Positions 9,740 through 64,000 of a DNA stretch of 64,000 nt are shown here, piece after piece. Under the pieces are notes generated by a model that saw only the letters and a program-made list of their open reading frames with translations, did no database searches and had not been told where the DNA came from. Origin of the DNA: Nitrospira lenta (GTDB lineage Bacteria > Nitrospirota > Nitrospiria > Nitrospirales > Nitrospiraceae). The stretch lies in assembly GCA_945905765.1 (NCBI GenBank), contig CAMDPZ010000002.1, positions 3,123-67,122 of the forward strand, written 5' to 3'. The translations under genes and the position numbers were made by a program. Position 1 is the stretch's first letter. Each line of letters starts with the position of its first letter.

Positions 9740-10219
9740 ATGGGCAAGACGATGTTAGGGGTCTTCTTCGGCCTCGTGATGGTCGCGACTGGGGCATCCA
9801 CCGCGTTTGCGCTCCAGGCTGGTGGAGTCGAAGTCGGGGATCTGGAGACTGGCTCCGTGGTCGGTCAGGCGTTCAAGGAGCTGGACGTCGATGCCCAGCT
9901 GTTCGCAATCGAGATCGGCAACTTGAAGACGTGGTATCCGCCCGTCACGATCATCGATTTCAAAGTTCGGCCTGGTCGTCCAGTTTTGCTCAAGGTGACG
10001 AACAATTCTACCGCTGACCATGGATTTCAGATGACCGATGCGACGAACGCCGGTTCGCCGTTTGTCATGAAGGCGGAAGTGGTCTTGAAGCCTGGCGAAA
10101 CGAAGTACATTGGTATTCCGACCAGCGACATGTTCTATGCGACGCAGGGCAACACCCTGACCTATCGCTGCCAGCTGCATGCAGGGCATGTCGGTGGCAA
10201 GATTTTGATGATCAAGTAA
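9740..10219 (+). CDS. secreted cupredoxin-like (blue-copper-type) protein
   Basis: Signal peptide MGKTMLGVFFGLVMVATGASTAFA. Candidate Cu ligands are H in TADHGF and C/H/M in YRCQLHAGHVGGKILM. AAGGAGG lies upstream of the ATG. Confidence 0.6.
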   Translation: MGKTMLGVFFGLVMVATGASTAFALQAGGVEVGDLETGSVVGQAFKELDVDAQLFAIEIGNLKTWYPPVTIIDFKVRPGRPVLLKVTNNSTADHGFQMTDATNAGSPFVMKAEVVLKPGETKYIGIPTSDMFYATQGNTLTYRCQLHAGHVGGKILMIK

Positions 10220-10245
10220 GAGTTTTCGAGAGCTGATTCATGAGC

Positions 10246-10287
10246 ATCGCCCGCTCCGCGACAACGCGGAGCGGGCGATGGCTTTTT
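10246..10287. terminator. strong hairpin terminator between convergent genes
   Basis: A 15-bp perfect stem atcgcccgctccgcg / cgcggagcgggcgat with loop acaa, followed by ggcttttt. Confidence 0.8.
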
Positions 10288-10294
10288 GCGGTTC

Positions 10295-10627
10295 TTACAC
10301 GTCTTTTTCCGCGCGACAGTCCGCGCCCGGTTCGAGTGGAAGATTCTGAATTCCCCTGATCTCTCCCGCTACGATCAATAATAAGAAATGGTTTACGGTG
10401 GGTTCTGCTTCGCGAGGCCGGCTCACGATGGTGTGCATGTCTACGACCATTTCATCTCCCTCCCACTGGGTATCGTTGATTACCCAATAGTGGCCTCGCG
10501 CATCGGGAAATTGGCGCACGACAAACGCTTCAATGATGGTGCCCAGATCGCCCGGACTGGCCCGCGTGAGCGAGGGGAGGGTGAGGATGCCGCAGAGCAG
10601 GGCGACGATGATCCAGTGAGGCCGCAT
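10295..10627 (-). CDS. secreted hypothetical protein
   Basis: Internal ATG at 10627 gives MRPHWIIVALLCGILTLPSLTRASP, a signal-peptide-like N-terminus. The ORF is open to 10702. Confidence 0.5.
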   Translation of the reverse strand: MRPHWIIVALLCGILTLPSLTRASPGDLGTIIEAFVVRQFPDARGHYWVINDTQWEGDEMVVDMHTIVSRPREAEPTVNHFLLLIVAGEIRGIQNLPLEPGADCRAEKDV

Positions 10628-10780
10628 GTTGCACCTCCGCGCGAGGGAGTGAGAAGCATGGGCGGCTCCATCGAGAAAAGAGAGAGCCGGACGGTCCGCC
10701 AACGATCAATGCGACGGTACTCTGAGACGGGAAGGAAGTCCAGATGAGAGGGCGGTTTCTGACGTGATCCGTTAGAAGAG

Positions 10781-10816
10781 AAAGGCCCTGCTTCTCAGGA
10801 GAAAAGCAGGGCCTTT
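10781..10816 (-). terminator. hairpin downstream of the ferredoxin gene
   Basis: aaaggccctgct / agcagggccttt stem (12 bp). A T-rich tract follows on the minus strand. Confidence 0.6.
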
Positions 10817-10838
10817 GCGATTGAACGATGCGCGATGA

Positions 10839-11186
10839 TTAGTTGCGCACGCCGCTCCAGATCTTCGTCGGATCGATCGTCTTGTCCGGATTCAGTGCCT
10901 TCACCTTCTCCAGCAGGACTTCCGTCGTTTCCGGATAGAGCGGATCGGCAATGCAGCAATTGTCGACTGGGCAAACGGCCGCGCATTGCGGTTCGTCGAA
11001 GTGTCCGACGCACTCGGTGCAGCGGTCGTGCGTAATGATATAGATACTATCGCCGACTCCCTGGCCGTCGCCGACATGATGGCCCTTCGCTTCCGCGTCG
11101 CTGCGAGTTTCGAAAATCGCCTCGTTCGGACATTCGGGCAGGCAAGCTCCACAAGAGATACATTCATCGGTAATCAGCAGCGCCAT
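10839..11186 (-). CDS. YfhL-type 4Fe-4S ferredoxin
   Basis: MALLITDECISCGACLPECPNEAI ... CTECVGHFDEPQCAAVCPVDNC. ATG at 11186 follows GGAGG. Confidence 0.85.
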   Translation of the reverse strand: MALLITDECISCGACLPECPNEAIFETRSDAEAKGHHVGDGQGVGDSIYIITHDRCTECVGHFDEPQCAAVCPVDNCCIADPLYPETTEVLLEKVKALNPDKTIDPTKIWSGVRN

Positions 11187-11407
11187 GACCCTCGCCTCCT
11201 TCTCACCACAATGAGACACAGATGGTTGACAAGCCCGTCTCGCCACGACATAGTGCGTGACGCGACGCGAGGCCCATTCTAGTCCGTCGTTCTTTTCTAA
11301 GTCAACAGAACGGTCCTTGCTCAGAAGGCCTAGACGACCTGTTTTATGGGCCGTTTTATGGGCCTTTGGGCCCAGTGAACCATTACAAGTCGTGAGAGAG
11401 AATATCT

Positions 11408-11902
11408 ATGGCCATTCCATCGGTAAGCGATCGGGAGCAGAAAAGGAAGCGCATTATCACGCTCGTGCTTATGGCGATTTTTCTGATGAGCGCCTCGTTT
11501 TTCCTGATCGATCGCAAAGACGAGACCATCATTGTCGTGTCCTTTCCGAATGGCCGTACGCTCGAGACGGAGGTGGCGGATACGCCGGAGAAACTGCTCT
11601 TCGGTCTCGCTTTTCGGGAGACGTTGCCGGCGAACAGTGGAATGCTTTATATCTTTGAGTCGACCGGCCAGAACCATATCTGGACGAGAGGCTATCGGTT
11701 TCCGGTGGACATGATATGGATCGATGAAAGCCATCATATCGTGGGGCTGAAAGAGCATGTCGCGCCCTGCGTGGAAGATGTCTGCCCTCAATATAGTTCC
11801 GCCCCTGATGCGGTCCGTTACGCGATTCAAACGGAAGCCGGTTTCATCGAGCGGGAAGGGGTCACGGTCGGACTGGAATTAAAATATACGCTGCGGATGT
11901 AA
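11408..11902 (+). CDS. DUF192-family protein (COG1430-like)
   Basis: N-terminal membrane anchor, then ...GMLYIFE...IWTRGYRFPVDMIWIDESHHIVG..., typical of DUF192. Confidence 0.65.
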   Translation: MAIPSVSDREQKRKRIITLVLMAIFLMSASFFLIDRKDETIIVVSFPNGRTLETEVADTPEKLLFGLAFRETLPANSGMLYIFESTGQNHIWTRGYRFPVDMIWIDESHHIVGLKEHVAPCVEDVCPQYSSAPDAVRYAIQTEAGFIEREGVTVGLELKYTLRM

Positions 11903-11946
11903 GGTCTGCGGCGTGGAAAAGATCTAGAAAGAGGAGTCGGTGTCGC

Positions 11947-12267
11947 ATGTTAGAGGGATTTCAATCCGTCGCCCGCGTTGAAGAGCTGCAACCCGGGCAA
12001 TCAAAAGTCGTGACAGTCCAGAATCGCGAGCTGGCTCTGTTTAATATCCAGGGGACGTATTTCGCGATTCATAACCTCTGCCCTCATGAGGGTGGTCCCT
12101 TGAGCGAAGGGCGCGTGAAGGGGTTTGTCGTGGCCTGTCCCTGGCACGATCTGGCTTTCGATATTCGAAACGGGCAAGGAACGGACGGGGGCGGGTATTG
12201 CGTGGGCAGTTATGACGTGCGGGTGGAGGGCGCGGAGATTTTCGTCGGGCCCAGGAAGAAAACATAG
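11947..12267 (+). CDS. Rieske [2Fe-2S] ferredoxin (NirD-like small subunit type)
   Basis: CPHEGGPL ... CPWHDLAFD Rieske ligand boxes. Confidence 0.85.
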   Translation: MLEGFQSVARVEELQPGQSKVVTVQNRELALFNIQGTYFAIHNLCPHEGGPLSEGRVKGFVVACPWHDLAFDIRNGQGTDGGGYCVGSYDVRVEGAEIFVGPRKKT

Positions 12268-12308
12268 AAGATCAGGCGGAGAGGGAGCGGATTGCCGCGT
12301 AATTCACG

Positions 12309-12665
12309 ATGAGTATGACGTCCAGCCAGGACCATGACGGCTTTAAGTTATCAGACGGGGCCAAGGTCATTCAGGCGACCCTTGAGCAGCCCATCCGGAT
12401 TCATCTCTGGGAAGATCGGACGAGAGGAGAGCTCTGGGTTCCGACCTACGATCCGGTGGGGCTGTCAATGCTGGCAGACGATTACCTGCGCATTGCCGGG
12501 AATAATGCCGTCGATAACGGACGGAGGACTTTTGAGTTTCAGGCGATCAAGCCGGGAATCCATCGGGTGCTGTTCGAGAAACGCATGGGGTGGAAATTCA
12601 CCGCCGAAGACCGGCGCGTCTTCGAGGTGACCGTTTCCGATTCCTCGTCCTGCGGGAGTGCGTAA
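12309..12665 (+). CDS. small chagasin/ICP-like (inhibitor I42-like) domain protein, tentative
   Basis: The size and motif spacing (IRIHLWEDRTRGELW ... DNGRRTFEFQAIKPGIHRVLFEKRMGW) recall the chagasin layout NPTTGYxW...GxGGxxxFxF...RPW. The motifs are degenerate. Confidence 0.35.
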   Translation: MSMTSSQDHDGFKLSDGAKVIQATLEQPIRIHLWEDRTRGELWVPTYDPVGLSMLADDYLRIAGNNAVDNGRRTFEFQAIKPGIHRVLFEKRMGWKFTAEDRRVFEVTVSDSSSCGSA

Positions 12666-53931: not shown

Positions 53932-56469
53932 ATGAAAACACGACACGACAATTTCGGCGCGAAAATTATTTGGGCGGGACTTTGTGTCCTGGGAATGATG
54001 CCGCTCTGTTTTCCCTTGGAAGCCCAGGCGCAGGCGATGGCGGATTACACGTCCATCCCTCCGTTCATTGCCGACGCGGTTCCTCCGAACGTCCTCTTGT
54101 TGATGGATAACAGCGGCAGTATGAATAGTTCGGCCTACCACAATGCCAATGAGGCCTATGATTCGACAAAGTCCTATAACGGTTATTTCTCTCCCACGAA
54201 ATGCTACAGCTACGCTTCCAATAAATTCACTCCCGGCGCAGACAAAGCCGCCAGTGGCAATCCCTGCAGCGCTGGCGCTCCTTGGTTAGGGAGTTTTTTG
54301 AACTACCTGATGATGACCAGGCTGGAGATTACCAAGTGGGTCATGATGGGAGGCAAATGCGCCCCGCGGGCTGTCGCTGGGACTTGTTTCCCCGGGGGCA
54401 CCCTGACGCTGGAGACGACTGCATCGGTAAACTCCATCGATGTGGATGGGACCGGTATCAGCCCCTATACATCTGTGAAGTGTTTTGACCGGTCTGGCAA
54501 TAGTCTCACGGTTAAGAATGGCGCAGGCTGCGGAGGCACGGCTGACTCCTATACGCTTAAGGCCGAGATTGCGGCGGAGCCTGACGGGATCATTCAGGCT
54601 GTGGGGAATAAGGCTCGTTTCGGCCTCATGCAATTTAAGGGGGCGGGAGATGGAGGCCAGGTCTTGGCCGATGTCGGCGGCAATATCACCACGCTGGTCA
54701 ACCAGATCGAAAATACCAACGCTGCAACCTATACGCCATTGGCCGAATCGCTCTATGAGGCCACGCGCTACTTTGCGCAGATTGCTCCGGCCTTTGCCAA
54801 TTCCGATTATTCTTACACTGTCACCAGCCGCGACCCCTATTACTTCAAGTCTCCTGATTGGAGCTCCACTCCGCCGGGCAACTATGTAACGTGCTGTAAA
54901 AGTTTCGTCATGATCTTTACCGATGGCGAGCCGACGCAGGACGTGAATGTTCCGGCGAGCCTGCAGGACTATGCCCACTCCTATCACGCCGCGCATTGTA
55001 CCAGCACGACGTCGACCACCTGCGTGGGGCATAAGACCGATTATGCGTCCGGCGGGAAACACTATCTGGATGATGTGGCCTATTACGCCCACACGACGGA
55101 TCTTCGTCAGGCGACCTTGCCGGTACTCAATGAGGCGGGGAAAGATCTGACGGGGTTCCAGAACCTCACGGTCTATACCTTTTACGCGTTCGGTCAGGCG
55201 ATCGGGCGGGAGATTTTGCAGACGTCGGCCAAGACCGGAGGGTTTGAAGACCGGAACGGGAACAATCAGCCGGACTTAGTCGAAGAATATGACAAGGTGA
55301 ACAACTATACCGGGGCGCAGGGCGCTGACGGCCTTCCCGATACCTATTTCGAATCGGCCGATGCCGACGACCTTAGGGACAAACTCCTCTCCGCCATCAC
55401 CAGTATCCTCCAGCGTAGCGCCTCCGGAACGGCCGTTTCGGTGCTCGCGACCTCATCTACCGGCGACGGGTCCCTCTACCAATCGTTTTTCTATCCCCTC
55501 ACCTACGAAGGGGTCAGGGATGTGAAATGGACCGGTTATACCCAGGGCCTCTTCCTGGACACTTACGGAAATCTTCGCGAGGATACGAACGCCGATGGGC
55601 GGCTGGTCTATAGCGACGATAAGATTGTGCGGACCAGATTCGATGTGGCGACCAACACCGTGTTTGTCGATCGCTATCACGACAGCAACGGCGACGGGAA
55701 GGCGGACAGCGTGACCGCCTATGAATCGATTGCCTTGCGCGATATGAAGCCGGTCTGGGAGGCAGGCAAACGTCTGGCCTTGACCGATCCGGCGAATCGA
55801 ACGGTCCTCACCTGGGTGGATCTCAATAATAATGGCCTGGTCGATGCAGGGGAGCAGCTCCCGTTCACGACGGCCAACTCCGCCACCTTGAGCCCTTATC
55901 TCAGGGCCGGCGCGTCCCCCTATACGGCCGACAACATCATCAATTTCATTCGCGGCACCCAGGTCAGTGGTTTGCGCGACCGGCAATTGACCGTGGGAGC
56001 TACGCTTGCCGTGTGGAAGTATGGAGATCCGATCCATTCGACGCCGACGGTGATCGGGCCGCCGAAAGAACGGTTCGATCTATTGTATGGCGACTCCACC
56101 TATACGGCGTTTTTTCAGCAATATAAGAATCGCCGTTTGGTCGCCTACATTGGCTCGAACGACGGGATGATGCATGCCTTCAACGGCGGGTTCTATCATC
56201 GGGGTGACGACCCCTCCACCGGGTCGTCTGTCGAACATGGTTGGTTCACGAAAAATCAAACGGACAATACGAGCGGCCAGGCCTTGGGGGACGAGTTGTG
56301 GGGGTTCATCCCCTATCAGCTGCTTCCCCATCTGAAGTGGCTGACCCAGTCGGATTATACCCATGTCTATTACGTCGATCTCAAGCCGAAGGTAACCGAC
56401 GCCAGGATTTTCACCTCCCTTGCTAGACTCGACTTCACTTTAAAAACAAGAGGTTGTACCCCCGACTGA
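53932..56469 (+). CDS. pilY1: vWA-domain PilY1-like pilus tip adhesin, apparently 3'-truncated at the composition break
   Basis: Signal peptide. The vWA MIDAS motif is LLLMDNSGSM, then ...TPLAESLYEA... and ...MIFTDGEPT. PilY1-type C-terminal region (IGSNDGMMHAFNGG..., ...HVYYVDLKPKVTDARIF). The last 15-20 codons are AT-rich and look unrelated. Confidence 0.8.
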   Translation: MKTRHDNFGAKIIWAGLCVLGMMPLCFPLEAQAQAMADYTSIPPFIADAVPPNVLLLMDNSGSMNSSAYHNANEAYDSTKSYNGYFSPTKCYSYASNKFTPGADKAASGNPCSAGAPWLGSFLNYLMMTRLEITKWVMMGGKCAPRAVAGTCFPGGTLTLETTASVNSIDVDGTGISPYTSVKCFDRSGNSLTVKNGAGCGGTADSYTLKAEIAAEPDGIIQAVGNKARFGLMQFKGAGDGGQVLADVGGNITTLVNQIENTNAATYTPLAESLYEATRYFAQIAPAFANSDYSYTVTSRDPYYFKSPDWSSTPPGNYVTCCKSFVMIFTDGEPTQDVNVPASLQDYAHSYHAAHCTSTTSTTCVGHKTDYASGGKHYLDDVAYYAHTTDLRQATLPVLNEAGKDLTGFQNLTVYTFYAFGQAIGREILQTSAKTGGFEDRNGNNQPDLVEEYDKVNNYTGAQGADGLPDTYFESADADDLRDKLLSAITSILQRSASGTAVSVLATSSTGDGSLYQSFFYPLTYEGVRDVKWTGYTQGLFLDTYGNLREDTNADGRLVYSDDKIVRTRFDVATNTVFVDRYHDSNGDGKADSVTAYESIALRDMKPVWEAGKRLALTDPANRTVLTWVDLNNNGLVDAGEQLPFTTANSATLSPYLRAGASPYTADNIINFIRGTQVSGLRDRQLTVGATLAVWKYGDPIHSTPTVIGPPKERFDLLYGDSTYTAFFQQYKNRRLVAYIGSNDGMMHAFNGGFYHRGDDPSTGSSVEHGWFTKNQTDNTSGQALGDELWGFIPYQLLPHLKWLTQSDYTHVYYVDLKPKVTDARIFTSLARLDFTLKTRGCTPD

Positions 56470-56547: not shown

Positions 56548-56952
56548 TTAGCTATACCTGTCTTCCTTGCCGTCTAACTTTTCTACTGGCGTATTTCTCT
56601 GCTGTGAAAACCCGTCTTTTGAGTCATTAGACGCTTTTTGAAGCGTAGGCAAAGTCTTGTCGAGGGTAGCTACTCTAGCCTGTTGGGTTGTGCGTGCTGG
56701 CAATGGCTTTTGTATGTGAGGCACTTTTGCTTGCACTACTGTCTTGTGAGGACTTGGTAATTTTGGCGGCGGCGGGGCATATGGCGCCTTGGGGTTGCGG
56801 GGCTTTGCTGTACGGGGCTTAGAAGCCGCCTTCTGTTGTGCTTGCTGTGCCTGTTGGCGCTGTTGGGTTGTTATAGCTTCCCACGTCTTATCCATAATTA
56901 TTTTTAAAAGTCCGACTTGTTCCTCTGCATTTGCTATTTCACTAATTCTCAT
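56548..56952 (-). CDS. hypothetical protein with a Gln/Pro/Lys-rich low-complexity core
   Basis: 134-aa ORF: ...TTQQRQQAQQAQQKAASKPRTAKPRNPKAPYAPPPPKLPSP... It is co-oriented with the upstream gene. Confidence 0.45.
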   Translation of the reverse strand: MRISEIANAEEQVGLLKIIMDKTWEAITTQQRQQAQQAQQKAASKPRTAKPRNPKAPYAPPPPKLPSPHKTVVQAKVPHIQKPLPARTTQQARVATLDKTLPTLQKASNDSKDGFSQQRNTPVEKLDGKEDRYS

Positions 56953-57068
56953 GGCTTTCTCCTATTCTTATATTTAGCGAGGTTGTTTTGAAAGAGTCCA
57001 TTTAATAGACACTCAGTCCACAAGAAGAAGCAGGACTAACACTCCTAAAAGTATTAGTCCCACTTCAT

Positions 57069-57506
57069 TCATTTGCCGAACCTTGCACGGACTGCGCCGC
57101 TTGCCGCTTCGATTTGACTGTCTAACTCTCCGCCTTCAACAGCACGTTTAATAATTTCTAAAGTCCCAATTAATTCGGCGGCACTAGCAATTTCAATACT
57201 TGGCTTTCCTTTTGAAATTTCTAAAATTTTTGTGCCGTACTTAACGTTGAGGCAAACCTTGCCGCCTTCCGAAACAAACCACCAAGGACGGACACGCTTT
57301 TGCATTTCAATTGTTTTCGTAGCACCGTCAATGTCGCGTACCGTTTTAAAACGTTTCGTGTTGAATGTCTCGCCTGCTTGCTGTGCTTTTGCCAACTGCA
57401 TTTGTTCCCACAGCTTCGTAGACAACTTGTTGCGTCTATGTTGAATGGGCGGCATAGCTGTAGGACGCTTTGCTGTGCTGAGTTTCAAACTGCTTAATGT
57501 ACTCAT
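57069..57506 (-). CDS. hypothetical protein (145 aa)
   Basis: Clean ORF preceded by AAGGAGAAA on the minus strand. No motif recognised. Confidence 0.55.
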   Translation of the reverse strand: MSTLSSLKLSTAKRPTAMPPIQHRRNKLSTKLWEQMQLAKAQQAGETFNTKRFKTVRDIDGATKTIEMQKRVRPWWFVSEGGKVCLNVKYGTKILEISKGKPSIEIASAAELIGTLEIIKRAVEGGELDSQIEAASGAVRARFGK

Positions 57507-57552: not shown

Positions 57553-57568
57553 TTTGGTTTGGACAACC
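57553..57568. repeat. left arm of a 16-bp inverted repeat (15/16 match)
   Basis: tttggtttggacaacc. Its reverse complement ggttgTccaaaccaaa matches ggttgCccaaaccaaa at 58495-58510. Confidence 0.6.
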
Positions 57569-58494
57569 TCTTTTTGCCATTAGCAGTCTTAACCTAATAA
57601 TTCTTGCCACATTTAGCATTCTTTTATTAGGTTTAGCTAAATAAATGTAGCAAACAGAAAAGAAGAAAAGTCTGTTGTTGCTAAAAATCACTACTGATTA
57701 TGAGTTGTGGCACTCAGTCGTTATGCCACCCTAAACCTGGACATTGGTGTTCGCAGGGACGGAAATTCTGTGCAGTAGCAGAGACTTTCATTCACTATCC
57801 TTTACAGGACGCTATTGGAATTTGCTAGCCAATTGAATAAAGAATATCTAACAGCACAAAGTCGACAGCCCAATAGCTGTGCGTCACGAGAAAGCCCTGC
57901 CTACACAGCAACTTTCAAACACTACAAATAGTTGGCACTTCGGCATTTGTAGTTTGCGTTTTATTTCAACCGCATATAAAAGGAGACAGCAAAACCGCCC
58001 TTACCTTTTCAAAGGTTATGCCAGAAGTGCTGTGGTAACGAACTCAGCAAAATTTCCGAACCCAAACATTGAGCCTTTTTACTAAGGCTCAGTGTGGGTT
58101 GAATCTTGCAAAATATCACAAATAAATTCTAAGAAAAAAGAAATGTGTGAGTGACAACGAAACACAAGGGAGTGTTAACTCCCTTTCAAGTGCTAGCTGT
58201 ATCCATAAGGGTATAGGTAGAAAATCAAGCCCGAGAAAGCGTAAGTAACTGACTACAATTTTTGGTAGCGCAGAAAATACAGGGCTGTATACCCAATTCT
58301 GGTTCAAATTATTCGTGTAAGCGGCGCAAAGCTAGAAGTGAATGCCCAAGTAGTAGCGTCCTTTAAATAGACGCTTGCAGGGCTTTTAAATACGTCGTGG
58401 CTTTTCTGCCACGATAAATATAAGAGAACTCTACTTCTCTTATATTTTTTAGCTAAGTCTTTGAATTTTAATGTCTCTTTGTTTTGCCTTTTTC

Positions 58495-58510
58495 GGTTGC
58501 CCAAACCAAA
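58495..58510. repeat. right arm of the 16-bp inverted repeat
   Basis: ggttgcccaaaccaaa, about 50 nt upstream of the recombinase start codon. Confidence 0.6.
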
Positions 58511-58560
58511 TATATGAAAACATAATTTAACTCTGTATTTATTACTTTATGGAGAGAGTT

Positions 58561-59127
58561 ATGTCACAAGCAAGAGTTTTAAACCCAACTGAATTACTCC
58601 GCGTACTGGACTACGTTGCTACACGCAGGCACAGCGCACGTAACCGCGCCTCACTGCTTTTAACGCATTACGCTGGTATGCGTGTAGCTGAAGTAGCCGC
58701 ACTACGCATAAACGACGTTTTGAACGGCGACAACACTATTAAAGCTGAAATTCGTTTAATGCCGAACCAAACCAAGGGCAAACATGCACGTACTGTTTAC
58801 CTCAATGAAAGAATGCAAAAGGAATTAGCCCAGTACATTAAGTGTCTAAAAATCAAAGACGTTACCAAGCCTTTGTTTTATACACAGAAACGCGAAGGCT
58901 TTAGTCCCAACACACTCACCCAGTACTTCTTCTTTCTTTACCGCAAGGTTGGTTTGACGGGGTGTAGCAGTCATAGCGGAAGACGTAGCTTCTTAACCGG
59001 ACTTGCCAACAAAGGCACAGCCATTCACATTCTCAAGTCCCTCGCGGGGCATAGAAATATTTCGACAACTGCTTCCTACCTCTACTCAAGTCCAACTCAA
59101 CTTAAGGCGGCTGTTGAGTTAGTCTAA
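58561..59127 (+). CDS. catalytic-domain-only tyrosine recombinase, FimB/FimE-like (about 188 aa)
   Basis: Catalytic residues in context: GMRVAEV (R), TKGKHARTV (K), HSGRRSF (HxxR), GHRNISTTASYLY (H...Y). By-eye parallels to FimB: HSARN, ALRINDV, GHRNI. ATG at 58561 follows GGAGAGAG, and ATG at 58549 is an alternative start. Confidence 0.85.
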   Translation: MSQARVLNPTELLRVLDYVATRRHSARNRASLLLTHYAGMRVAEVAALRINDVLNGDNTIKAEIRLMPNQTKGKHARTVYLNERMQKELAQYIKCLKIKDVTKPLFYTQKREGFSPNTLTQYFFFLYRKVGLTGCSSHSGRRSFLTGLANKGTAIHILKSLAGHRNISTTASYLYSSPTQLKAAVELV

Positions 59128-59135
59128 GCGTCCAT

Positions 59136-59894
59136 TTAATCGACAGTACTCTTTGGGAAAACACCCAAAGACGTATTGGCAATAATTGTTTGTGCTTGCT
59201 TAACGTACCGACTCATTGCAACTGTCATTGTGTTGTGTCGCATTTTCACGTTGTCCTGTAGTTGAAAGTCCTTATGCGTTGGCGGCATTGCTACTGGCAC
59301 AAGCCTAATACTCTCGCCTAACTCCCACATGGTTTTTCTCTCTGTCTTTGGTAGGGTTTCATTCGTAACCCAAGCGTCATAGGCTTCAAGCATTTTCTTT
59401 AAGTTACTCACGCTGTAATTTCTATATAGCTTGTAGCGTGCTGTAGTTGCAGTACCACCCATTGACTTGCGCCCACGCTTGCCTTTGTGAATTGTTTCAA
59501 GTTGTGCGGCAAAGTATTGCTGTAGCTTTCGCCTGCCAATAGATAAGTTAACAGCGAAGACGGCAATGTTTTCATTCCAGTCTTCACTCCACTCACTCTT
59601 ATCTTTGAGTTGCTTAAGGTTTATGTCATTTGGTGTTTCTCCAAATAGGTAGCCGCCTTTTTGACTGCTACCACCCCACCACTCGGCAAAGTCTTCACTG
59701 CGTATGTCGCCAAAGTCTTTGTACAGCTTGGCTAGCTTGCCTGCGCCATTGTTGTCACAGCACTTTAGGTATTCCTTGTTGCGGCGCATATAAGCCCAAA
59801 ACCAGTAGTAAGGACTTTTCTCCAACTCCTTAACGGAAGTGCGCTTGTTTTTTGTGCCAACGCGCGGGTAGGCGGCTAAGAAGGTTTGTTTCAT
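59136..59894 (-). CDS. hypothetical protein, possible DUF6499/DUF2285-like element regulator
   Basis: 252-aa ORF. SPYYWFWAYMRRNKEYLKCC resembles the ...AWEFLRRNPxY... motif of ICE-associated regulator-domain proteins. This is a by-eye comparison only. Confidence 0.5.
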   Translation of the reverse strand: MKQTFLAAYPRVGTKNKRTSVKELEKSPYYWFWAYMRRNKEYLKCCDNNGAGKLAKLYKDFGDIRSEDFAEWWGGSSQKGGYLFGETPNDINLKQLKDKSEWSEDWNENIAVFAVNLSIGRRKLQQYFAAQLETIHKGKRGRKSMGGTATTARYKLYRNYSVSNLKKMLEAYDAWVTNETLPKTERKTMWELGESIRLVPVAMPPTHKDFQLQDNVKMRHNTMTVAMSRYVKQAQTIIANTSLGVFPKSTVD

Positions 59895-60036
59895 AGCACA
59901 TATCTTATCAAGTAATTCGCAACCAATTACTTTTCGTCGTCATTTTAGGGCAGAAGTGATAAAGTCATACCTGTGCTAAGGCATTGTTTCTTAACAAGTT
60001 TTAGCCATTTTTTAACATAAATTGAAAGGTAATTAA

Positions 60037-60846
60037 ATGACACAAATTAACAACAAAACTGTAGAAGTTAAAGCAAACGCCGTTGTAGCGCCTACAACAG
60101 AAGCCGTAATTAAGAAGGCTAATGAGTTAGTAGCCGCACGTGAAAAGTTTGAAACAACAATTTTGGCACGTAGCAACAAGGAGTTGTATGGAATTTTGGG
60201 GCAAGTACACGACTTGTTTCTTACTGCCTGCGACAGTACTGAGTGCTTAAAGGAAACAGTCAAGCAAATGAAGGCTGTGCTGGCCAAGCGCAAAGTCAAA
60301 GTGCAAAGCAACTCTCCCGCACTAACTGTATTTGTCCGCTATGTGTTTAACAGCGACAGAAAGCGTGCCTATAACTACACACGCACTCTAATGGCGGCTA
60401 TTAAAGACAAAAGCGAAAACGAAACCCTAGCTGAGTTTATTGAAAGCAAAGGCGGCGTAGAGGAGTGCAAGAAGAACTTCGCTAAGAAACCTGAAACACT
60501 AGCAAAGGAAATTGCACTTAAAGACGCTATTGCTGACTCCTTTATGGCACTTGAAGGCTTAATGCCAAAAGAAACAGTAGCGCTACCTAACTCTAGTGTC
60601 CATTTTAACGACGGTTGCACATACGCCTTTGTATTGGCGCGACAAAACGCTAATAACGAATTGGAGTTATTGCGGACTGTGCCAACAACTACTAAGGCTA
60701 TGGAAAATGCCGCTTTGAAAGAAGTTGCTAAGGACTTGTTAAAGCGACGTGAAGCCGCCAACGACTCTAGCAAAGAGAAAGACAAACTCAAAGCCAGTGC
60801 CATTGCTGTAGCCAGTATGTCGGTAAAAGAATTAGAAGCGGCTTAA
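60037..60846 (+). CDS. hypothetical, predicted mostly helical protein (269 aa)
   Basis: Clean ORF rich in Lys/Glu/Ala. No motif recognised. It lies 64 nt upstream of the AAA+ gene. Confidence 0.55.
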   Translation: MTQINNKTVEVKANAVVAPTTEAVIKKANELVAAREKFETTILARSNKELYGILGQVHDLFLTACDSTECLKETVKQMKAVLAKRKVKVQSNSPALTVFVRYVFNSDRKRAYNYTRTLMAAIKDKSENETLAEFIESKGGVEECKKNFAKKPETLAKEIALKDAIADSFMALEGLMPKETVALPNSSVHFNDGCTYAFVLARQNANNELELLRTVPTTTKAMENAALKEVAKDLLKRREAANDSSKEKDKLKASAIAVASMSVKELEAA

Positions 60847-60910
60847 TTTTTTTTATTAGGGGCTGGCAACCCCTACCCATTTAACTCAAAACCAAATTAA
60901 AGGAATTTTT

Positions 60911-61624
60911 ATGTACAAACCTAATAACTATGGCAAGTTTATTGACACAGAAAGAAAATATTCGCCAGCATTCATTGGCGACTTTATTTTTCCTAATGCC
61001 CATGTCAAAAGTGTCATTACAGCCTATGCAAGCGGAGAAGTAACCCGCCCCTTAATTCTTTGCGGCAGGAATGGCACAGGCAAGTCACTTATTGCCAAGC
61101 TACTTCCAAAAGCAATTGAAGGTATGGAGAAGGTAGTTACAAGTTATATCAAGCCCTATGAATTGAATAGCGACAAAGAGGTTGACAAACTAATTTCACG
61201 TAACAAGTTGTTTGACACTTTTTTTTCAACCAATGGACAACGTTATAGCTATTACATTATTGAGGAAATGAATTTCCGCATTGGCGGGCATAACTCGTTT
61301 CGTACTGCTATAGACAATTACGCAGGCATTGACTTAACCATTATTACAACGAATGAAATTGCCCAAATTGACAAAGGCATTAGAAGTCGCTGTGAAGTTC
61401 TTGAAGTACCTGCCTGTACTCCCGCAGTCTTTTTCCCTCACGCAAAACGCATTATGGAAAAAGAAGGCATTGGAATTGAAGACAACGCACTCTTGGCGGC
61501 ACTAGAAACTAGCTATGTCATAGCGGCTGATAACAGAGGCTATTACAAAGTGCTGGACGGCTTGTTTAGAGACTTCAATTTGGCACAGGAAGACAGGAAG
61601 CAAATGCAAGAAACTTTGGCATAA
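60911..61624 (+). CDS. clamp-loader-like (T4 gp44 / RFC small-subunit-like) AAA+ ATPase, short form (237 aa)
   Basis: RFC box II-like ERKYSPAFIGDFIFP, Walker A GRNGTGKS, Walker B YYIIEEMN, sensor-1 IITTN, SRC motif IRSRCEVLEV. Confidence 0.7.
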   Translation: MYKPNNYGKFIDTERKYSPAFIGDFIFPNAHVKSVITAYASGEVTRPLILCGRNGTGKSLIAKLLPKAIEGMEKVVTSYIKPYELNSDKEVDKLISRNKLFDTFFSTNGQRYSYYIIEEMNFRIGGHNSFRTAIDNYAGIDLTIITTNEIAQIDKGIRSRCEVLEVPACTPAVFFPHAKRIMEKEGIGIEDNALLAALETSYVIAADNRGYYKVLDGLFRDFNLAQEDRKQMQETLA

Positions 61625-61663
61625 ACGCCTACATTTCTTTCCCTCTATAGCAACAGCAAGTTG

Positions 61664-61692
61664 AAGCCTACCCTATGCGGTAGGCTTTTTTT
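61664..61692 (+). terminator. rho-independent terminator after the AAA+ gene
   Basis: aagcctacc-ctatgc-ggtaggctt followed by a T tract. Confidence 0.8.
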
Positions 61693-61733: not shown

Positions 61734-62057
61734 ATGGCAGGCGAGTACAACAATGACTGGAATAGCGTGCCAAACACGCACCCGAATGCCAAGCCAGAGT
61801 CTTACAGGCAAGTTAAGAACGTGCTTGCTGTACTCATACACGAGGGCTTTCTGCGTGGTAGCACGTTTAGAGACTGCTACTTTGAAGTTGCTGACTGCCA
61901 ACAACCTTTTGACACATTTGACGGCAAGACAAGGGTAGAAGTACAAGTCTTATGGTTTGGTAGAAAGCCAGCTACAACTTGGGCGCACATAACTCTTAAT
62001 AACAAATATGAATTACTTCGCAACTATAGCGGTGAAGTAGTAAATAACATTTCATAA
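61734..62057 (+). CDS. hypothetical small protein (107 aa) immediately upstream of the nuclease gene
   Basis: ORF preceded by GGGGA. Its stop is 6 nt before the next ATG. There is no HTH-like segment, so it does not look like a classical C (controller) protein. Confidence 0.5.
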   Translation: MAGEYNNDWNSVPNTHPNAKPESYRQVKNVLAVLIHEGFLRGSTFRDCYFEVADCQQPFDTFDGKTRVEVQVLWFGRKPATTWAHITLNNKYELLRNYSGEVVNNIS

Positions 62058-62063
62058 ATTACC

Positions 62064-63053
62064 ATGACAAAACAAACAAAAAAAAGACTACCTTCACTAC
62101 CTAGCCTACTTGATAGAAAAATATATAAAACAGGGCAAACTAGAGGCGCTGACGACGACGAGATTTTTCAAAATCGAGTATCGAGAAATGGTACCGTCTT
62201 AATTCCCTACAGCGTTGTTAAACAAGTATTCGCTTCCTTGCCAAAGGGTGAAAGTTTTGAAAAGGGATATATCGTCCTCATTTCTCCAAAACAGTATTTT
62301 GAAAATAAAAATATCGCTATAGAGTTGAAGCAATTAGATTTGTCTTTAGGAGTAAATCTACTAATTTTTTACGAAGTGCGAGAGGACTGGAATTTATATT
62401 CTCCAGATACTAAAGGCCTGTCGCCTGCTACAAGCAGGACTCAACCTCTTGGCGGAGAATTTGTTGCAAGAATTCCAGCCACTACCTCAACGGGTAATGG
62501 ACAAAAAATTTCATTAGGTTTTCATACAACAAAACCCAAAGGCGCTGGCATTAGATTTTATGAGTACGCCACTGAAAAAATGACAACTGACTGTCGGATA
62601 CAGTTGGAAACATTATTTTGGCTATGTTATGACTCAAAAAATGTTTCATTAGCGAATGGTATGACAGAAGAAAACTCCAATCTTCGTAGAGAAAGCATAT
62701 TAGGCATTGCTACAGCTAATGGCTTGCTTGATTATAAAAAACTTATTTCCTCCAGAATTATTGATAGAGAACACAAAACAATTTGCCCATTGTGTCTTGA
62801 AAAACTTTCTTCAACAGGTTTTTTTAATAAAATGGAACAGGCCGAAGGAAGGGAAGTATCGGATTTAACAATTACCCAATTAAATCTTTTCCATATTAAT
62901 GAACTACGACTTGGGGAGTTAAATCACACCACGTACAACTTAGGCTGGGGGCATCACCACTGTAACGTAGTTGTTAAAGATGCTGGAATAATTCCTACAC
63001 TTGAATGGATGGATAAAGTTGTTAGAAAAAATAAAGAGTCTGGCTATTTGTAA
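62064..63053 (+). CDS. putative type II restriction endonuclease with a C-terminal Cys/His beta-beta-alpha-Me (HNH-like) motif
   Basis: C-terminal ...HKTICPLCLEKL...LFHINELRLGELNHTTYNLGWGHHHCNVVV... It is convergent with a DNA methyltransferase gene and overlaps it by 10 nt. Confidence 0.55.
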   Translation: MTKQTKKRLPSLPSLLDRKIYKTGQTRGADDDEIFQNRVSRNGTVLIPYSVVKQVFASLPKGESFEKGYIVLISPKQYFENKNIAIELKQLDLSLGVNLLIFYEVREDWNLYSPDTKGLSPATSRTQPLGGEFVARIPATTSTGNGQKISLGFHTTKPKGAGIRFYEYATEKMTTDCRIQLETLFWLCYDSKNVSLANGMTEENSNLRRESILGIATANGLLDYKKLISSRIIDREHKTICPLCLEKLSSTGFFNKMEQAEGREVSDLTITQLNLFHINELRLGELNHTTYNLGWGHHHCNVVVKDAGIIPTLEWMDKVVRKNKESGYL

Positions 63054-64000
63054 GCTAATGCCATTTGTAATTTTTCTTCTTTCTTAATTTTTTTAACTTC
63101 TTCTTTTGTTTCTTTTTGTATCTTTTCCATAGTTATTGAAGAAATTCGTTCTGCCCATACTGAATCCAACTCTATAGAAATACACTTCCGTTTAGTTTTT
63201 AATGCGGCAATTTGCGTTGAACCCGAACCTGCAAAGCAATCTAAAACTATATCGTCTTCGTAGGTTGTCGCTTCAATTGCATGTACAAGCATCGAAATTG
63301 GTTTTTCTGCTGGGTGCTTACCGCTATATGGCCTTACTGTTGGAAAATTCCAAACATCTGTAAACTCGATTTGTCCATTGACATTAAATGGGCGTATTAA
63401 ATCTTCATACGGAAGCATTGAGGTTACTTTTCCACTGTCCAATATTGCCGCACATATTTTTTCATACTGTTCTTTGCTGGGAACATTTCTGCCTGCCTCC
63501 CAATTCGATACTGCACCGCCATGGTTTACCTTTCCATAAGCGCCTGTTAACTCAGTAAGCTGGTGTCCACTCAGCCCAGCCTGCTTTCGTTTTTCTTTTA
63601 AATAAAGTCCATACCAAGATTTAAATATATTTCCTTCGAATGAAGGTTCTGCAAAAATAATTCTTTCGGTATGTTCATACCACTGTCTCAACGACTCCTT
63701 TTTCATTTTTTGTTTCCAGCCGTCAAAACCTGGTTCATTCGGCTTAGTCCAGACAATATTTGACAAGACATTAAATTCTTTTCTAAACACAACCTCAAGC
63801 CTTGAAGACATTGTTGCAGAACAATAGCAAAAAATTGCGCCATTTTTTTTAAGCACTCTTTTCCATTCCGTTACATACTCTCCCATCCAATTTAAAAAAT
63901 CTATATCTTCATTAAAAGATGTGTCACCTTTAATATTTTTCTTTTTGGTTGAGTGATATGGAGGGTCAGTTAGGACTAATGAAATTGATTCTGAAGGAAT
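63044..64000 (-). CDS. beta-class N6-adenine (or N4-cytosine) DNA methyltransferase with an embedded XRE-type HTH; 5' end outside the window
   Basis: My translation of the reverse complement of 63887-64000 gives IPSESISLVLTDPPYHSTKKKNIKGDTSFNEDIDFLNW in frame with the track ORF (MGEYVTEW...). Motif IV is DPPY and motif I is VLDCFAGSGSTQIAA. The inserted HTH is KRKQAGLSGHQLTELTG...AVSNWEAGRNVPSKEQYEKI. Confidence 0.85.
   Translation of the reverse strand: MPSESISLVLTDPPYHSTKKKNIKGDTSFNEDIDFLNWMGEYVTEWKRVLKKNGAIFCYCSATMSSRLEVVFRKEFNVLSNIVWTKPNEPGFDGWKQKMKKESLRQWYEHTERIIFAEPSFEGNIFKSWYGLYLKEKRKQAGLSGHQLTELTGAYGKVNHGGAVSNWEAGRNVPSKEQYEKICAAILDSGKVTSMLPYEDLIRPFNVNGQIEFTDVWNFPTVRPYSGKHPAEKPISMLVHAIEATTYEDDIVLDCFAGSGSTQIAALKTKRKCISIELDSVWAERISSITMEKIQKETKEEVKKIKKEEKLQMALAYK

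What the first reader, a model, noticed from the sequence alone, without database searches (positions are those of the whole stretch)
60037..61692. Orphan clamp-loader-like AAA+ ATPase paired with an unknown helical protein: candidate uncharacterised two-gene system
The 237-aa ATPase carries the full set of clamp-loader hallmarks: box II-like KYSP..IGDFIFP, GRNGTGKS, YYIIEEMN, IITTN and IRSRCEVLEV with the SRC arginine finger. It parallels T4 gp44 and RFC small subunits, but it is too short to include the usual C-terminal collar. The window contains no sliding clamp, no DNA polymerase and no other clamp-loader subunits. The gene is co-transcribed with a 269-aa protein lacking any motif I recognise, and a strong terminator closes the unit (61664-61692). 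It lies in foreign DNA directly beside an R-M system, a defence-island-like context. I do not recall clamp-loader-type ATPases being components of named anti-phage systems. The cassette could be a new defence or anti-defence module, or a minimal replication or mobilisation helper of the element.
Basis: partly seen in the sequence, partly recalled or inferred. Interest (0 to 1): 0.7.

Follow-up and report, generated by a model that had tools for sequence, protein, structure and literature searches.

The report
Clamp-loader-like ATPase in a mobile island
The two genes are real, but they are not a stand-alone defence cassette: they belong to the conserved core of a small, previously undescribed family of self-integrating DNA islands of freshwater bacteria, in which a shortened clamp-loader-type ATPase with no known function always follows a swappable partner protein.

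Summary
Observation confirmed. ORFs 60037-60846 (269 aa) and 60911-61624 (237 aa) plus the terminator at 61664-61692 are as described. The ATPase is a true clamp-loader-clade AAA+ module (RFC domains I+II) with Walker A/B, sensor 1, the SRC arginine finger and sensor 2 all conserved, and it has no collar.

Interpretation partly supported. The pair is not an orphan cassette and not defence cargo. Across about 110 related loci it sits in a fixed backbone. That backbone is orf134, DUF6641, sometimes a large structured RNA, a ~190-aa tyrosine recombinase, an unknown ~250-aa protein, the partner and the ATPase. It is separated by variable cargo from an inward-facing ~420-aa integrase.

Complete elements are 8.6-13.3 kb and are flanked by 30-49-bp repeats of tRNA 3' ends. 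Cargo varies: R-M systems (BstXI-like here), other nucleases, heavy-metal resistance, or none. The window copy inserted at a secondary site inside pilY1.

About 30% of ATPase-anchored loci carry a second, non-homologous ~300-aa partner. This fits a DNA-specific adaptor plus a conserved ATP-driven loader.

The best guess is a replication or DNA-handling module of the excised element. This is inference only: no origin, circular form or structural match for the partner was found. There is no hit in PADLOC, plasmid, phage or IMG/VR collections.

The parts
56405..56420 (.). Left end of the integrative element, at a junction inside the pilY1-like ORF (secondary attachment site).
   Evidence: Nucleotide similarity to L002-L005 starts at 56405. 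The junction ACGCCAGGATTTTCA|CCTCCCTTGCTAGACTC resembles the tRNA-Phe att core ACGCGGATTTTCAA|ACGCTTGCTAGACTC of L002. GC content drops here.
56548..56952 (-). orf134, a backbone gene of unknown function with a conserved N-terminus and a Q/A/P-rich tail.
   Evidence: Syntenic in type A and type B elements. No family hit.
57069..57506 (-). DUF6641 protein, a backbone gene.
   Evidence: PF20346 1.4e-11 and PHROG 31551 4.2e-27. Syntenic across loci.
57689..58185 (+). Large structured non-coding RNA. Its 5' part is the Rfam Polynucleobacter-1 motif. It is present in only a subset of the element family.
   Evidence: RF01718 at 57702-57840, 98.5 bits against a gathering score of 37. A ~560-nt block is conserved in 17 or more loci. 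RNAalifold predicts 117 pairs, 21 with compensatory changes. The motif is absent from L006, L016, L017, L023, L024, L026, L032 and L073.
58549..59127 (+). Small (192 aa) tyrosine recombinase consisting of the catalytic domain only; a backbone gene.
   Evidence: PF00589 1.5e-24. Xer-like and FimB-size by NCBIfam. Syntenic across loci, although its position relative to the pair flips between architectures.
59136..59894 (-). orf252, an unknown protein transcribed divergently from the pair. It is the pair's most constant neighbour.
   Evidence: Found next to the partner/ATPase in both architectures and with both partner types. It carries a conserved Trp-rich N-terminal motif. No Pfam or PDB match.
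59895..60036 (.). Divergent promoter region containing the palindrome AAGTAATT-N7-AATTACTT (59910-59932).
   Evidence: Read directly from the sequence. A promoter-like site lies at 59991-60018. Function is inferred.
60037..60846 (+). Partner protein (269 aa). It has a helical core, a small beta-sheet, a disordered linker and a conserved C-terminal tail. It is a putative DNA/target adaptor.
   Evidence: AF2 pLDDT 79. No fold match in PDB or BFVD. No Pfam or PDB sequence match. The family has 959 representatives at 50% clustering. It lies directly upstream of the ATPase in 65 of 88 loci.
60911..61624 (+). Collarless clamp-loader-clade AAA+ ATPase (237 aa).
   Evidence: details are given in the observation check.
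61664..61692 (+). Intrinsic terminator that closes the partner-ATPase operon.
61734..62057 (+). orf107, a small backbone gene that occupies different positions in different elements.
62064..63886 (.). Cargo: a BstXI-like type II restriction endonuclease (62064-63053, +) and an N6/N4 methyltransferase with an embedded HTH (63044-63886, -).
   Evidence: PF09552 1.1e-87; PF01555 1.8e-28; PADLOC REase_II and MTase_II. The same slot holds other cargo in related elements.

Best explanation
**Shown**
- The two genes, together with the divergently transcribed orf252, form the conserved ATPase module of the backbone of a family of 8.6-13.3-kb integrative elements.
- These elements occur in freshwater Betaproteobacteria: Polynucleobacter, Limnohabitans, Ca. 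Methylopumilus and Comamonadaceae. One locus is from Methylococcales.
- The elements integrate through a ~420-aa tyrosine integrase into tRNA 3' ends. The window copy used a look-alike site inside pilY1.
- They carry exchangeable cargo; here it is a BstXI-type R-M system.

**Inferred**
- The 269-aa protein is a DNA- or target-specific adaptor. It has a helical core, a flexible linker and a conserved C-terminal docking tail.
- It recruits the 237-aa RFC-like ATPase.
- The ATPase keeps a trans-acting SRC arginine finger but has no collar. It therefore has to oligomerise on DNA or on the adaptor.
- It then uses ATP to load or remodel a host DNA-replication component, such as the beta clamp or the replicative helicase, or to remodel the element's own DNA.
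- The most likely role is replication or maintenance of the excised circular element.
- This would make it a functional analogue of the 'initiator + AAA+ loader' gene pairs of lambdoid phages, PICIs and tycheposon replication modules, built from a different AAA+ clade.

**Confidence**: about 0.9 that this is a backbone module of an integrative element rather than cargo or defence. About 0.35-0.4 for the replication/loader mechanism. The single number given for this explanation refers to the mechanism.
For: **Backbone status**
- Synteny orf134 / DUF6641 / small recombinase / orf252 / partner / ATPase holds in loci where the proteins are only 22-50% identical.
- There are two architectures. In both, the integrase faces inward at one end and cargo lies between it and the backbone.
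- Complete elements are delimited by direct repeats of tRNA 3' ends:
  - L095, 45 bp
  - L081, 37 bp
  - L043, 49 bp
  - L006, L016 and L017, 47-49 bp (tRNA-Pro)
  - L026, 46 bp (tRNA-Gln)
- Elements exist with no cargo between ATPase and integrase (L050, L073, L102).
- Cargo is diverse: D12 methyltransferase R-M, MmeI, HpaII, Mrr, T5orf172+ResIII, heavy-metal genes, an RCC1 giant protein.

**Active oligomeric ATPase**
- K58, E119, N148, R160 (the SRC finger) and R209 are invariant.
- The fold matches RFC domains I+II, for example PDB 2chg with target-normalised TM-score 0.65.

**Adaptor + motor logic**
- Partner and ATPase are co-inherited (r = 0.93).
- In 18 of 60 ATPase-anchored loci the partner is replaced by a non-homologous ~300-aa protein (hhalign probability 0.13). 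It has the same layout: a helical N-domain, a low-complexity linker and a small C-domain.

**Architectural analogy**
- Minimal elements such as L006 contain no other NTPase and no primase, helicase, Rep, relaxase or packaging gene.
- An extra Xer-like small recombinase is what circular replicons use for multimer resolution. This last point rests on established knowledge and inference, not on a test here.
Against: - No cis evidence for an origin in the island: no iterons, no DnaA-box cluster and no outstanding AT-rich block near the pair.
- None of the fully contained contigs is circular, so an extrachromosomal replicating form is unproven.
- The partner has no detectable DNA-binding or initiator fold.
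- Known helicase loaders belong to the DnaA/DnaC clade, not the clamp-loader clade.
- Known clamp loaders need a collar and five subunits, which are absent here.
- No physical-interaction test (co-folding) could be run.
Confidence: 0.4

Rival explanations
1. Recombination accessory. The adaptor + ATPase would control the element's tyrosine recombinases. It could activate or direct the small Xer-like recombinase (as FtsK activates XerCD), or control excision, integration directionality or target choice (as TnsC, MuB and IstB do for transposases).
For: - The pair is tightly linked to a ~190-aa tyrosine recombinase in every architecture, sometimes immediately adjacent (L089, L090).
- Identity of the small recombinase tracks that of the ATPase (r = 0.85).
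- No recognisable excisionase is present in the backbone.
- Adaptor swapping, seen here as two partner families, is also typical of target selectors such as TniQ/TnsD. That comparison rests on established knowledge.
Against: - Integration is classical att-site recombination at tRNA 3' ends with 30-49-bp repeats. That reaction normally needs no ATPase.
- The ATPase gene is never next to the large integrase except when cargo is absent.
- TnsC, MuB and IstB belong to other AAA+ lineages.
- No precedent is known to me for an AAA+ regulator of a tyrosine recombinase.
Confidence: 0.2
2. Phage hijack or interference by a satellite-like island. The collarless gp44/RFC-like ATPase would bind a helper phage's (or the host's) sliding clamp or clamp loader. 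It would do so either to parasitise phage replication for the island or to poison it.
For: - The best phage relatives of the ATPase are T4-like cyanophage gp44 proteins at ~30% identity, and PHROG 168 is its best family hit.
- DUF6641 matches a phage protein family, PHROG 31551. Weinberg et al. 2010 noted possible homology of the RNA-adjacent gene family to cyanophage P-SSM2 locus 218.
- Small integrase-bearing islands that carry defence cargo are typical of satellites. This is established knowledge for P4 and PICIs.
Against: - The elements contain no capsid, terminase or packaging gene.
- Partner, ATPase, DUF6641 and the RNA are all absent from 2.9 million IMG/VR viral contigs.
- They are also absent from 50,697 phage records, apart from true clamp loaders.
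- Affinity to gp44 is no greater than to cellular RFC.
Confidence: 0.15
3. A stand-alone anti-phage or anti-plasmid defence (or anti-defence) system.
For: - It lies beside an R-M system in foreign DNA.
- Many defence systems combine an NTPase with an unknown partner. This is established knowledge.
- The ATPase gives weak PADLOC hits to candidate families PDC-M29A and PDC-M62A, at E ~3e-3 over the P-loop region only.
Against: - The pair never behaves as cargo. It is fixed in the backbone while the neighbouring defence genes are exchanged.
- It is present in elements with metal-resistance cargo or with no cargo.
- There is no significant PADLOC match.
- There is no nuclease, toxin or other effector domain in either protein.
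Confidence: 0.08

Closest known systems
Clamp-loader AAA+ subunits (RFC small subunits, T4 gp44, bacterial gamma/tau and delta')
   Same: - Same fold for domains I+II.
- N-terminal KY(R/S)P box, Walker A/B, sensor 1, SRC arginine finger and sensor 2 are all present.
- Profile E-values of 1e-13 to 1e-8 and Foldseek probability 1.0.
   Different: - No collar domain III: 207-246 aa against about 320-370 aa.
- No companion subunits and no clamp gene.
- Scores are far below the curated family cut-offs (43 bits against 250 for dnaX_nterm).
- The Walker B motif is IIEE rather than hhDE.
- It is encoded in a mobile-element backbone next to an unrelated partner.
Initiator + AAA+ loader replication pairs of lambdoid phages, PICIs and Firmicute phages (lambda O/P; DnaD-like + DnaC/DnaI-like)
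   Same: - Two co-transcribed genes, in the order ~270-330-aa modular protein then ~215-245-aa AAA+ ATPase.
- The upstream protein has an N-domain, a flexible linker and a C-terminal docking piece. It is exchangeable between lineages while the ATPase is kept.
   Different: - The ATPase belongs to the clamp-loader clade, not the DnaA/DnaC clade.
- No origin repeats were found.
- The partner has no recognisable initiator fold.
- The analogy is architectural only.
Tycheposons and PICI-like integrative elements (Hackl et al., bioRxiv 10.1101/2020.12.28.424599)
   Same: - ~10-kb elements at tRNA genes.
- Inward-facing tyrosine integrase at one end, a small conserved module at the other end or next to the integrase, and cargo in between.
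- Tandem accumulation at one tRNA (L013).
   Different: - The hallmark genes differ. There is no primase, helicase, polymerase, terS or capsid gene.
- No RFC-like gene appears in the tycheposon hallmark table.
- This family has an additional small recombinase, DUF6641 and, in a subset, a large structured RNA.
- The hosts are freshwater Betaproteobacteria.
AAA+ regulators of transposition with DNA-binding adaptors (TnsC-TniQ/TnsD, MuB, IstB)
   Same: A mobile-element ATPase working with a target- or DNA-specific adaptor that is swapped between lineages. This is a conceptual similarity only.
   Different: - Different AAA+ lineages.
- Those regulators work with DDE transposases encoded in the same operon.
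- Here the recombinases are tyrosine recombinases that use tRNA att sites.
Polynucleobacter-1 RNA motif (Rfam RF01718; Weinberg et al. 2010, PMC2864571)
   Same: - The window carries a full-length match of 98.5 bits.
- As published, the motif lies downstream of a conserved hypothetical gene, identified here as DUF6641.
   Different: - The motif was not previously tied to a mobile element.
- Here it is the 5' third of a structured RNA of about 420-500 nt.
- That RNA lies inside the element backbone, but it is missing from many elements that carry the ATPase pair.

Membership tests
Clamp-loader clade of AAA+ ATPases | AAA+ alpha/beta domain plus lid, with Walker A, Walker B, sensor 1 and sensor 2 | tested here: met
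   K58, E119, N148 and R209 are invariant in 49 sequences. The AF2 model (pLDDT 89) superposes on RFC, gp44 and gamma subunits.
Clamp-loader clade of AAA+ ATPases | SRC motif with a trans-acting arginine finger, and an RFC box II-like N-terminus | tested here: met
   RSRC has R160 invariant and S159 nearly invariant. KYSP has P19 invariant.
Functional sliding-clamp loader subunit (RFC / gamma complex / gp44-62) | C-terminal collar (domain III) that holds a pentamer together | tested here: not met
   The protein ends 30 residues after the lid with a single helix. All family members are 207-246 aa. Profile matches stop at about residue 200.
Functional sliding-clamp loader subunit (RFC / gamma complex / gp44-62) | Encoded together with a cognate clamp and the other loader subunits, or scoring as an equivalog of them | tested here: not met
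   No clamp, polymerase or second loader subunit occurs in the island or in related elements. NCBIfam scores of 16-43 bits compare with cut-offs of 180-1117.
Functional sliding-clamp loader subunit (RFC / gamma complex / gp44-62) | Binds and opens a sliding clamp and binds primer-template DNA | not testable with these tools
   This needs biochemistry or co-folding with host DnaN. No multimer prediction was available.
Known anti-phage defence systems (PADLOC-DB v2) | Significant match of the component proteins to a defence-system model | tested here: not met
   The partner has no hit. The ATPase has only E ~3e-3 P-loop hits to candidate families.
Known anti-phage defence systems (PADLOC-DB v2) | Behaves as exchangeable cargo in defence islands or hotspots | tested here: not met
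   The pair is invariant in the backbone while adjacent cargo changes. It is also present with non-defence cargo and with none.
Known anti-phage defence systems (PADLOC-DB v2) | Protects against phage or plasmid challenge | not testable with these tools
   This needs an experiment.
Initiator + AAA+ helicase-loader replication module | Co-transcribed modular upstream protein followed by a ~220-250-aa AAA+ ATPase in a mobile-element backbone | tested here: met
Initiator + AAA+ helicase-loader replication module | Loader belongs to the DnaA/DnaC/IstB (initiator) clade | tested here: not met
   All significant matches are to clamp-loader families. There is no DnaC, IstB or Bac_DnaA hit.
Initiator + AAA+ helicase-loader replication module | Origin with iterons or an AT-rich region in or next to the initiator gene, and a replicating extrachromosomal form | tested here: inconclusive
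   No iterons or DnaA-box cluster were found. No circular contigs were found among the loci. Absence in assemblies does not exclude a transient circle.
tRNA-targeting integrative element (genomic island with tyrosine integrase; tycheposon/PICI-like architecture) | Tyrosine integrase at one end, and direct repeats that duplicate a tRNA 3' end at both ends | tested here: met
   Shown in related loci L006, L016, L017, L026, L043, L081 and L095. In the window only the left junction is visible, because the right end lies beyond 64000.
tRNA-targeting integrative element (genomic island with tyrosine integrase; tycheposon/PICI-like architecture) | Tycheposon or PICI hallmark genes (primase/helicase/polymerase; terS or capsid) | tested here: not met
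   None is present in Pfam-annotated elements. The tycheposon hallmark list contains no RFC-like gene.

The most novel reading that the evidence does not exclude
A collarless RFC-type AAA+ ATPase, recruited by interchangeable adaptor proteins, would be a previously unrecognised kind of DNA loader that mobile elements use in place of DnaC-type loaders. It might load the host beta clamp or the DciA-dependent replicative helicase onto the excised island. Alternatively it might act as an ATP-driven activator of a minimal tyrosine recombinase. Either way it would define a new family of integrative elements. A subset of that family also carries a structured RNA of about 450 nt whose function is unknown.
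Probability: 0.25. Interest if true: 0.8.

Novelty: new variant of a known kind. Interest (0 to 1): 0.55.

Why it matters
- **For AAA+ biology:** clamp-loader-clade ATPases are known almost only as pentameric, collar-bearing clamp loaders and their close relatives. A widespread single-gene version with all catalytic residues intact, embedded in a mobile-element backbone and paired with swappable partners, suggests the clamp-loader motor has been adapted to another DNA transaction.
- **For freshwater microbial ecology:** the element family appears to be a main vehicle for R-M systems, other defence genes and metal-resistance genes in abundant streamlined lake bacteria (Polynucleobacter, Limnohabitans, Methylopumilus), where conjugative elements are scarce.
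- **For an orphan RNA:** it gives a genomic home to the Polynucleobacter-1 RNA motif and shows that the motif is part of a much larger RNA.
- **For annotation:** these proteins are currently mislabelled 'DNA polymerase III delta prime subunit' or 'RarA'.

Tried and rejected
1. **Fold and sequence matches for the partner.** Foldseek of the partner model against PDB and BFVD gave no hit better than E = 0.3. Profile searches against PDB and Pfam scans of 46 close and 10 distant members gave nothing. The same was true for orf252 and the alternative partner.
2. **Homology between the two partner families.** hhalign gave probability 0.13, so they are treated as unrelated. They share a layout and a 'REKF...helix' start that I noticed by eye.
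3. **Circular (excised) contigs.** No terminal overlaps were found in 27 loci.
4. **Origin signatures.** No iterons or DnaA-box clusters were found.
5. **The four GTC-N9-GAC dyads as iterons.** In many loci they sit at gene 3' ends. They look like hairpin terminators or REP-like elements, not an origin.
6. **The 25-nt inverted repeat 57544/58495 as arms of an invertible switch next to the FimB-sized recombinase.** It is read more simply as the same 16-nt promoter/operator motif placed in front of two divergent genes. Not pursued.
7. **RNA-primed replication using the conserved RNA.** Rejected as a general mechanism, because the RNA is absent from many elements that carry the pair.
8. **Plasmid, phage or virus origin.** The partner has no homologue in PLSDB or INPHARED, and the ATPase matches only true dnaX/clamp-loader genes there. 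There was nothing in IMG/VR.
9. **Broader metagenome scan with distant partner alignments.** This failed because no stretch was conserved enough.
10. **Literature.** I found no description of this module or element. The only related report is the RNA motif.
Full report
**1. The observation**

The window switches from ~59% GC host DNA to ~41% GC DNA at about 56.4 kb. The unit is closed by a canonical intrinsic terminator at 61664-61692.

All quoted motifs are present. The 237-aa protein matches:
- PHROG 168 'clamp loader of DNA polymerase', 4.8e-16;
- dnaX_nterm at 2.6e-11 and RFC small subunit at 1.2e-7, both far below the curated cut-offs.

A profile of 49 family members hits RFC5 (1.6e-13), archaeal RFC small subunit, T4 gp44 (4.8e-10) and E. 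coli gamma (2.2e-8) in the PDB.

Its AlphaFold model (pLDDT 89, pTM 0.84) has clamp-loader subunits as all of its 50 best Foldseek matches. These include the two-domain RFC fragment 2chg.

Within the family, Walker A K58, Walker B E119 (motif IIEE), sensor 1 N148, the SRC arginine R160 and sensor 2 R209 are invariant. The chain stops one helix after the lid, so there is no collar.

**2. The pair is not orphan: it belongs to a conserved backbone**

Homologues of both proteins are numerous and co-occur on the same contigs: 158 and 175 clusters at 90% identity. An exhaustive profile search finds 959 partner-family representatives at 50% clustering.

Every long contig shows the same neighbourhood:
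- a 134-158-aa protein;
- a DUF6641 protein;
- a variable slot;
- a ~190-aa tyrosine recombinase;
- a divergently transcribed ~250-330-aa unknown protein (orf252);
- the partner;
- the ATPase;
- small ORFs;
- variable genes;
- an inward-facing ~420-aa tyrosine integrase.

This holds for partner relatives only 22-33% identical to the query. It also holds for contexts anchored on divergent ATPases.

Two architectures exist:
- Type A: orf134(-) DUF6641(-) [RNA+] small recombinase(+) orf252(-) partner(+) ATPase(+) [cargo] integrase(-).
- Type B: tRNA, integrase(+), [cargo], orf252(-) partner(+) ATPase(+) small recombinase(-) [RNA-] DUF6641(+) orf134(+).

The trio orf252 / partner / ATPase is the tightest unit.

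**3. These are bona fide integrative elements**

Several loci contain complete elements bounded by direct repeats that duplicate a tRNA 3' end:

| Locus | Repeat | Site | Element size |
|---|---|---|---|
| L095 | 45 bp | tRNA | 10.8 kb |
| L081 | 37 bp | tRNA | 9.9 kb |
| L043 | 49 bp | tRNA | 10.8 kb |
| L006 | 47 bp | tRNA-Pro | 8.6 kb |
| L016 | 49 bp | tRNA-Pro | 10.6 kb |
| L017 | 48 bp | tRNA-Pro | 10.6 kb |
| L026 | 46 bp | tRNA-Gln | 13.3 kb |

L013, from a Polynucleobacter genome, has six tRNA-Phe repeats, indicating tandem islands.

Cargo differs from element to element:
- BstXI-type R-M (this window);
- D12-methylase R-M;
- MmeI;
- HpaII;
- Mrr;
- T5orf172+ResIII;
- a heavy-metal cluster (L023);
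- an RCC1 giant protein (L026);
- nothing at all between ATPase and integrase (L050, L073, L102).

The window's closest relative, L002 (87% nucleotide identity), sits at tRNA-Phe. In the window, similarity to L002 starts at 56405, inside the 3' part of a PilY1-like ORF. The junction there, ACGCCAGGATTTTCA|CC..CTTGCTAGACTC, mimics the tRNA-Phe att core of L002. The element therefore inserted into a secondary site and truncated pilY1. The right end, with the integrase, lies beyond the window.

Hosts identified from genomes are Polynucleobacter, Limnohabitans, Ca. Methylopumilus, a Comamonadaceae MAG and a Methylococcales MAG. Most metagenome contigs carry no habitat information that I could check. 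Weinberg et al. report the associated RNA motif from freshwater and estuary samples.

**4. What the pair is not**

PADLOC gives no hit for the partner and only E ~3e-3 P-loop matches for the ATPase. The partner has no homologue in 72,556 plasmid or 50,697 phage records, and the ATPase matches only bona fide dnaX/clamp-loader genes at 24-31% identity. ATPase, partner, DUF6641 and the RNA are all absent from 2.9 million IMG/VR contigs.

The pair keeps a fixed position while the neighbouring defence genes are exchanged. The 'defence-island context' is therefore explained by the element's cargo slot, not by the pair.

**5. Clues to mechanism**

(a) The ATPase has every catalytic residue, including a trans-acting arginine finger, so it should hydrolyse ATP as an oligomer. 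Lacking a collar, it needs DNA or another protein as scaffold.

(b) The partner model (pLDDT 79) has four parts:
- a disordered, often Lys-rich N-terminus;
- a helical core with a conserved basic motif, VRYVFNSDRKRAYNY;
- a small beta-sheet;
- a disordered linker followed by a conserved C-terminal tail, MTVKELEAA.

This is the layout of an adaptor with a docking peptide. It has no fold match in PDB or BFVD.

(c) The gene directly upstream of the ATPase varies. Among the 60 ATPase-anchored loci with enough upstream sequence:
- 37 have the partner family;
- 18 have a different ~300-aa family;
- 5 have no clear ORF.

The ~300-aa family has a helical N-domain, an acidic low-complexity linker and a small C-domain. 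It has no detectable homology to the partner (hhalign probability 0.13). A conserved motor with exchangeable specificity subunits is the pattern of initiator/loader pairs and of target selectors.

(d) Minimal elements contain no primase, helicase, Rep, relaxase or packaging gene. This ATPase is the only NTPase of the backbone.

(e) The overall layout matches that defined for tycheposons: inward-facing integrase, a small conserved module at the other end or next to the integrase, and cargo between. In tycheposons that module is the replication module. Their hallmark set contains no RFC-like gene.

(f) An additional small Xer-like recombinase is what circular replicons use to resolve multimers. 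This point is inference.

From these I infer that the pair is an adaptor + loader module for the element's own DNA metabolism, most likely replication of the excised circle.

Several results weigh against that inference:
- no iterons, DnaA-box cluster or distinctive AT-rich block;
- no circular contigs;
- no initiator-like fold in the partner;
- no precedent for a collarless clamp-loader protein acting as a loader.

I therefore give about 0.9 to 'backbone module of an integrative element' and only about 0.35-0.4 to the replication/loader mechanism. The rivals are control of the tyrosine recombinases (0.2), a satellite-type phage hijack or interference function (0.15) and a stand-alone defence system (0.08).

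**6. Comparison with known families**

The ATPase is a member of the clamp-loader clade of AAA+ proteins: motifs, fold and profile scores are all met. It fails the defining features of a functional clamp-loader subunit, because it has no collar, no companion subunits or clamp, and falls far below the equivalog cut-offs.

Its resemblance to lambda O/P-type or DnaD/DnaI-type replication pairs is architectural only. The ATPase is from the wrong clade for membership.

The element resembles tycheposons and PICIs in organisation but shares none of their hallmark genes. I found no paper describing the module or the element. Public annotation calls the ATPase 'DNA polymerase III delta prime subunit' or 'RarA', which is misleading.

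**7. Side finding: a large structured RNA in the backbone**

Between DUF6641 and the small recombinase the window carries a full-length Rfam Polynucleobacter-1 RNA (RF01718, 57702-57840, 98.5 bits). The conserved non-coding block is much longer, about 560 nt. It is better conserved than the flanking proteins, even in type B elements whose ATPase is only ~41% identical.

RNAalifold on 12 sequences predicts 117 pairs, 21 of them with compensatory changes. The prediction includes a long-range closing helix, giving a structured RNA of roughly 57689-58106 plus 3' hairpins to 58185.

Weinberg et al. 2010 had noted only that the motif lies downstream of an uncharacterised gene family. The RNA is missing from many elements that have the pair: L006, L016, L017, L023, L024, L026, L032 and L073. 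It is therefore not required for the pair's function.

**8. Verdict**

This is a new variant of a known kind. It is an uncharacterised backbone module containing a new collarless branch of clamp-loader ATPases, in a new family of tRNA-targeting integrative islands.

Interest is moderate to high, at 0.55. The ATPase's role is open and experimentally tractable. The element family links abundant freshwater bacteria, defence-gene traffic and an orphan structured RNA.

Noticed in passing
window 57689-58185 (+); also L008, L014, L034, L038, L066, L081, L084, L085, L094, L095, L102: The Rfam Polynucleobacter-1 RNA (RF01718, 57702-57840) is only the 5' part of a conserved structured RNA of about 420-500 nt. 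RNAalifold predicts 117 pairs, 21 with compensatory changes. The RNA lies inside the element backbone and is better conserved than the neighbouring proteins. It is absent from many elements of the same family. Its function is unknown.
   Followed up: partly
window 53932-56469 and junction ~56405-56420: The PilY1-like ORF is truncated by the element. The junction sequence mimics the tRNA-Phe att core used by the closest relative (L002). The element therefore appears to have integrated at a secondary site inside pilY1, inactivating a type IV pilus gene, which is a possible phage-receptor function.
   Followed up: partly
L054, L063, L064, L068, L072-L076, L083, L091, L096-L099, L108-L110 (e.g. 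L068:4310-5251): In about 30% of ATPase-anchored loci the gene upstream of the ATPase belongs to a second ~280-350-aa family. It has a helical N-domain with an LPNSWTSIYEITQLP motif, an acidic low-complexity linker and a small C-domain. It has no detectable homology to the 269-aa partner.
   Followed up: partly
window 57553-57568 (-) and 58495-58510 (+): The same 16-nt motif, GGTTGYCCAAACCAAA, lies about 40-50 nt upstream of the start codons of the divergent DUF6641 and small-recombinase genes. It forms part of a 25-nt inverted repeat that brackets the RNA region. It is probably a shared promoter or operator; an invertible switch was not excluded.
   Followed up: partly
window 56993-57013, 58355-58375, 59127-59147, 60595-60615; similar sites in L002, L006, L008, L014, L016, L017: A dyad-symmetric motif, (A)GYGTC-N9-GACRC(T) with a central TTTAAA-like core, recurs mostly just after stop codons of backbone genes. 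One copy lies inside the partner ORF. These look like hairpin terminators or REP-like elements. Any protein-binding role is untested.
   Followed up: partly
L013 (Polynucleobacter sp. JS-Fieb-80-E5), 5871-12390: Six direct repeats of the tRNA-Phe 3' end occur within 6.5 kb next to the element. This indicates serial or tandem island insertions at one tRNA, an 'additive' genomic island.
   Followed up: no
window 63044-63886 (-): The cargo methyltransferase carries an HTH_31/HTH_3 domain (residues ~92-147) embedded within the N6_N4_Mtase domain. Its 3' end overlaps the restriction gene's 3' end by 10 nt. This may be a built-in controller function.
   Followed up: no
window 61734-62057 (+); L014, L016, L018, L034, L043, L049-L051, L102: The 107-aa ORF after the terminator is another backbone gene. 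In other elements it sits on the opposite strand between the small recombinase and orf252. It is a candidate small regulator or excisionase, with no family match.
   Followed up: no
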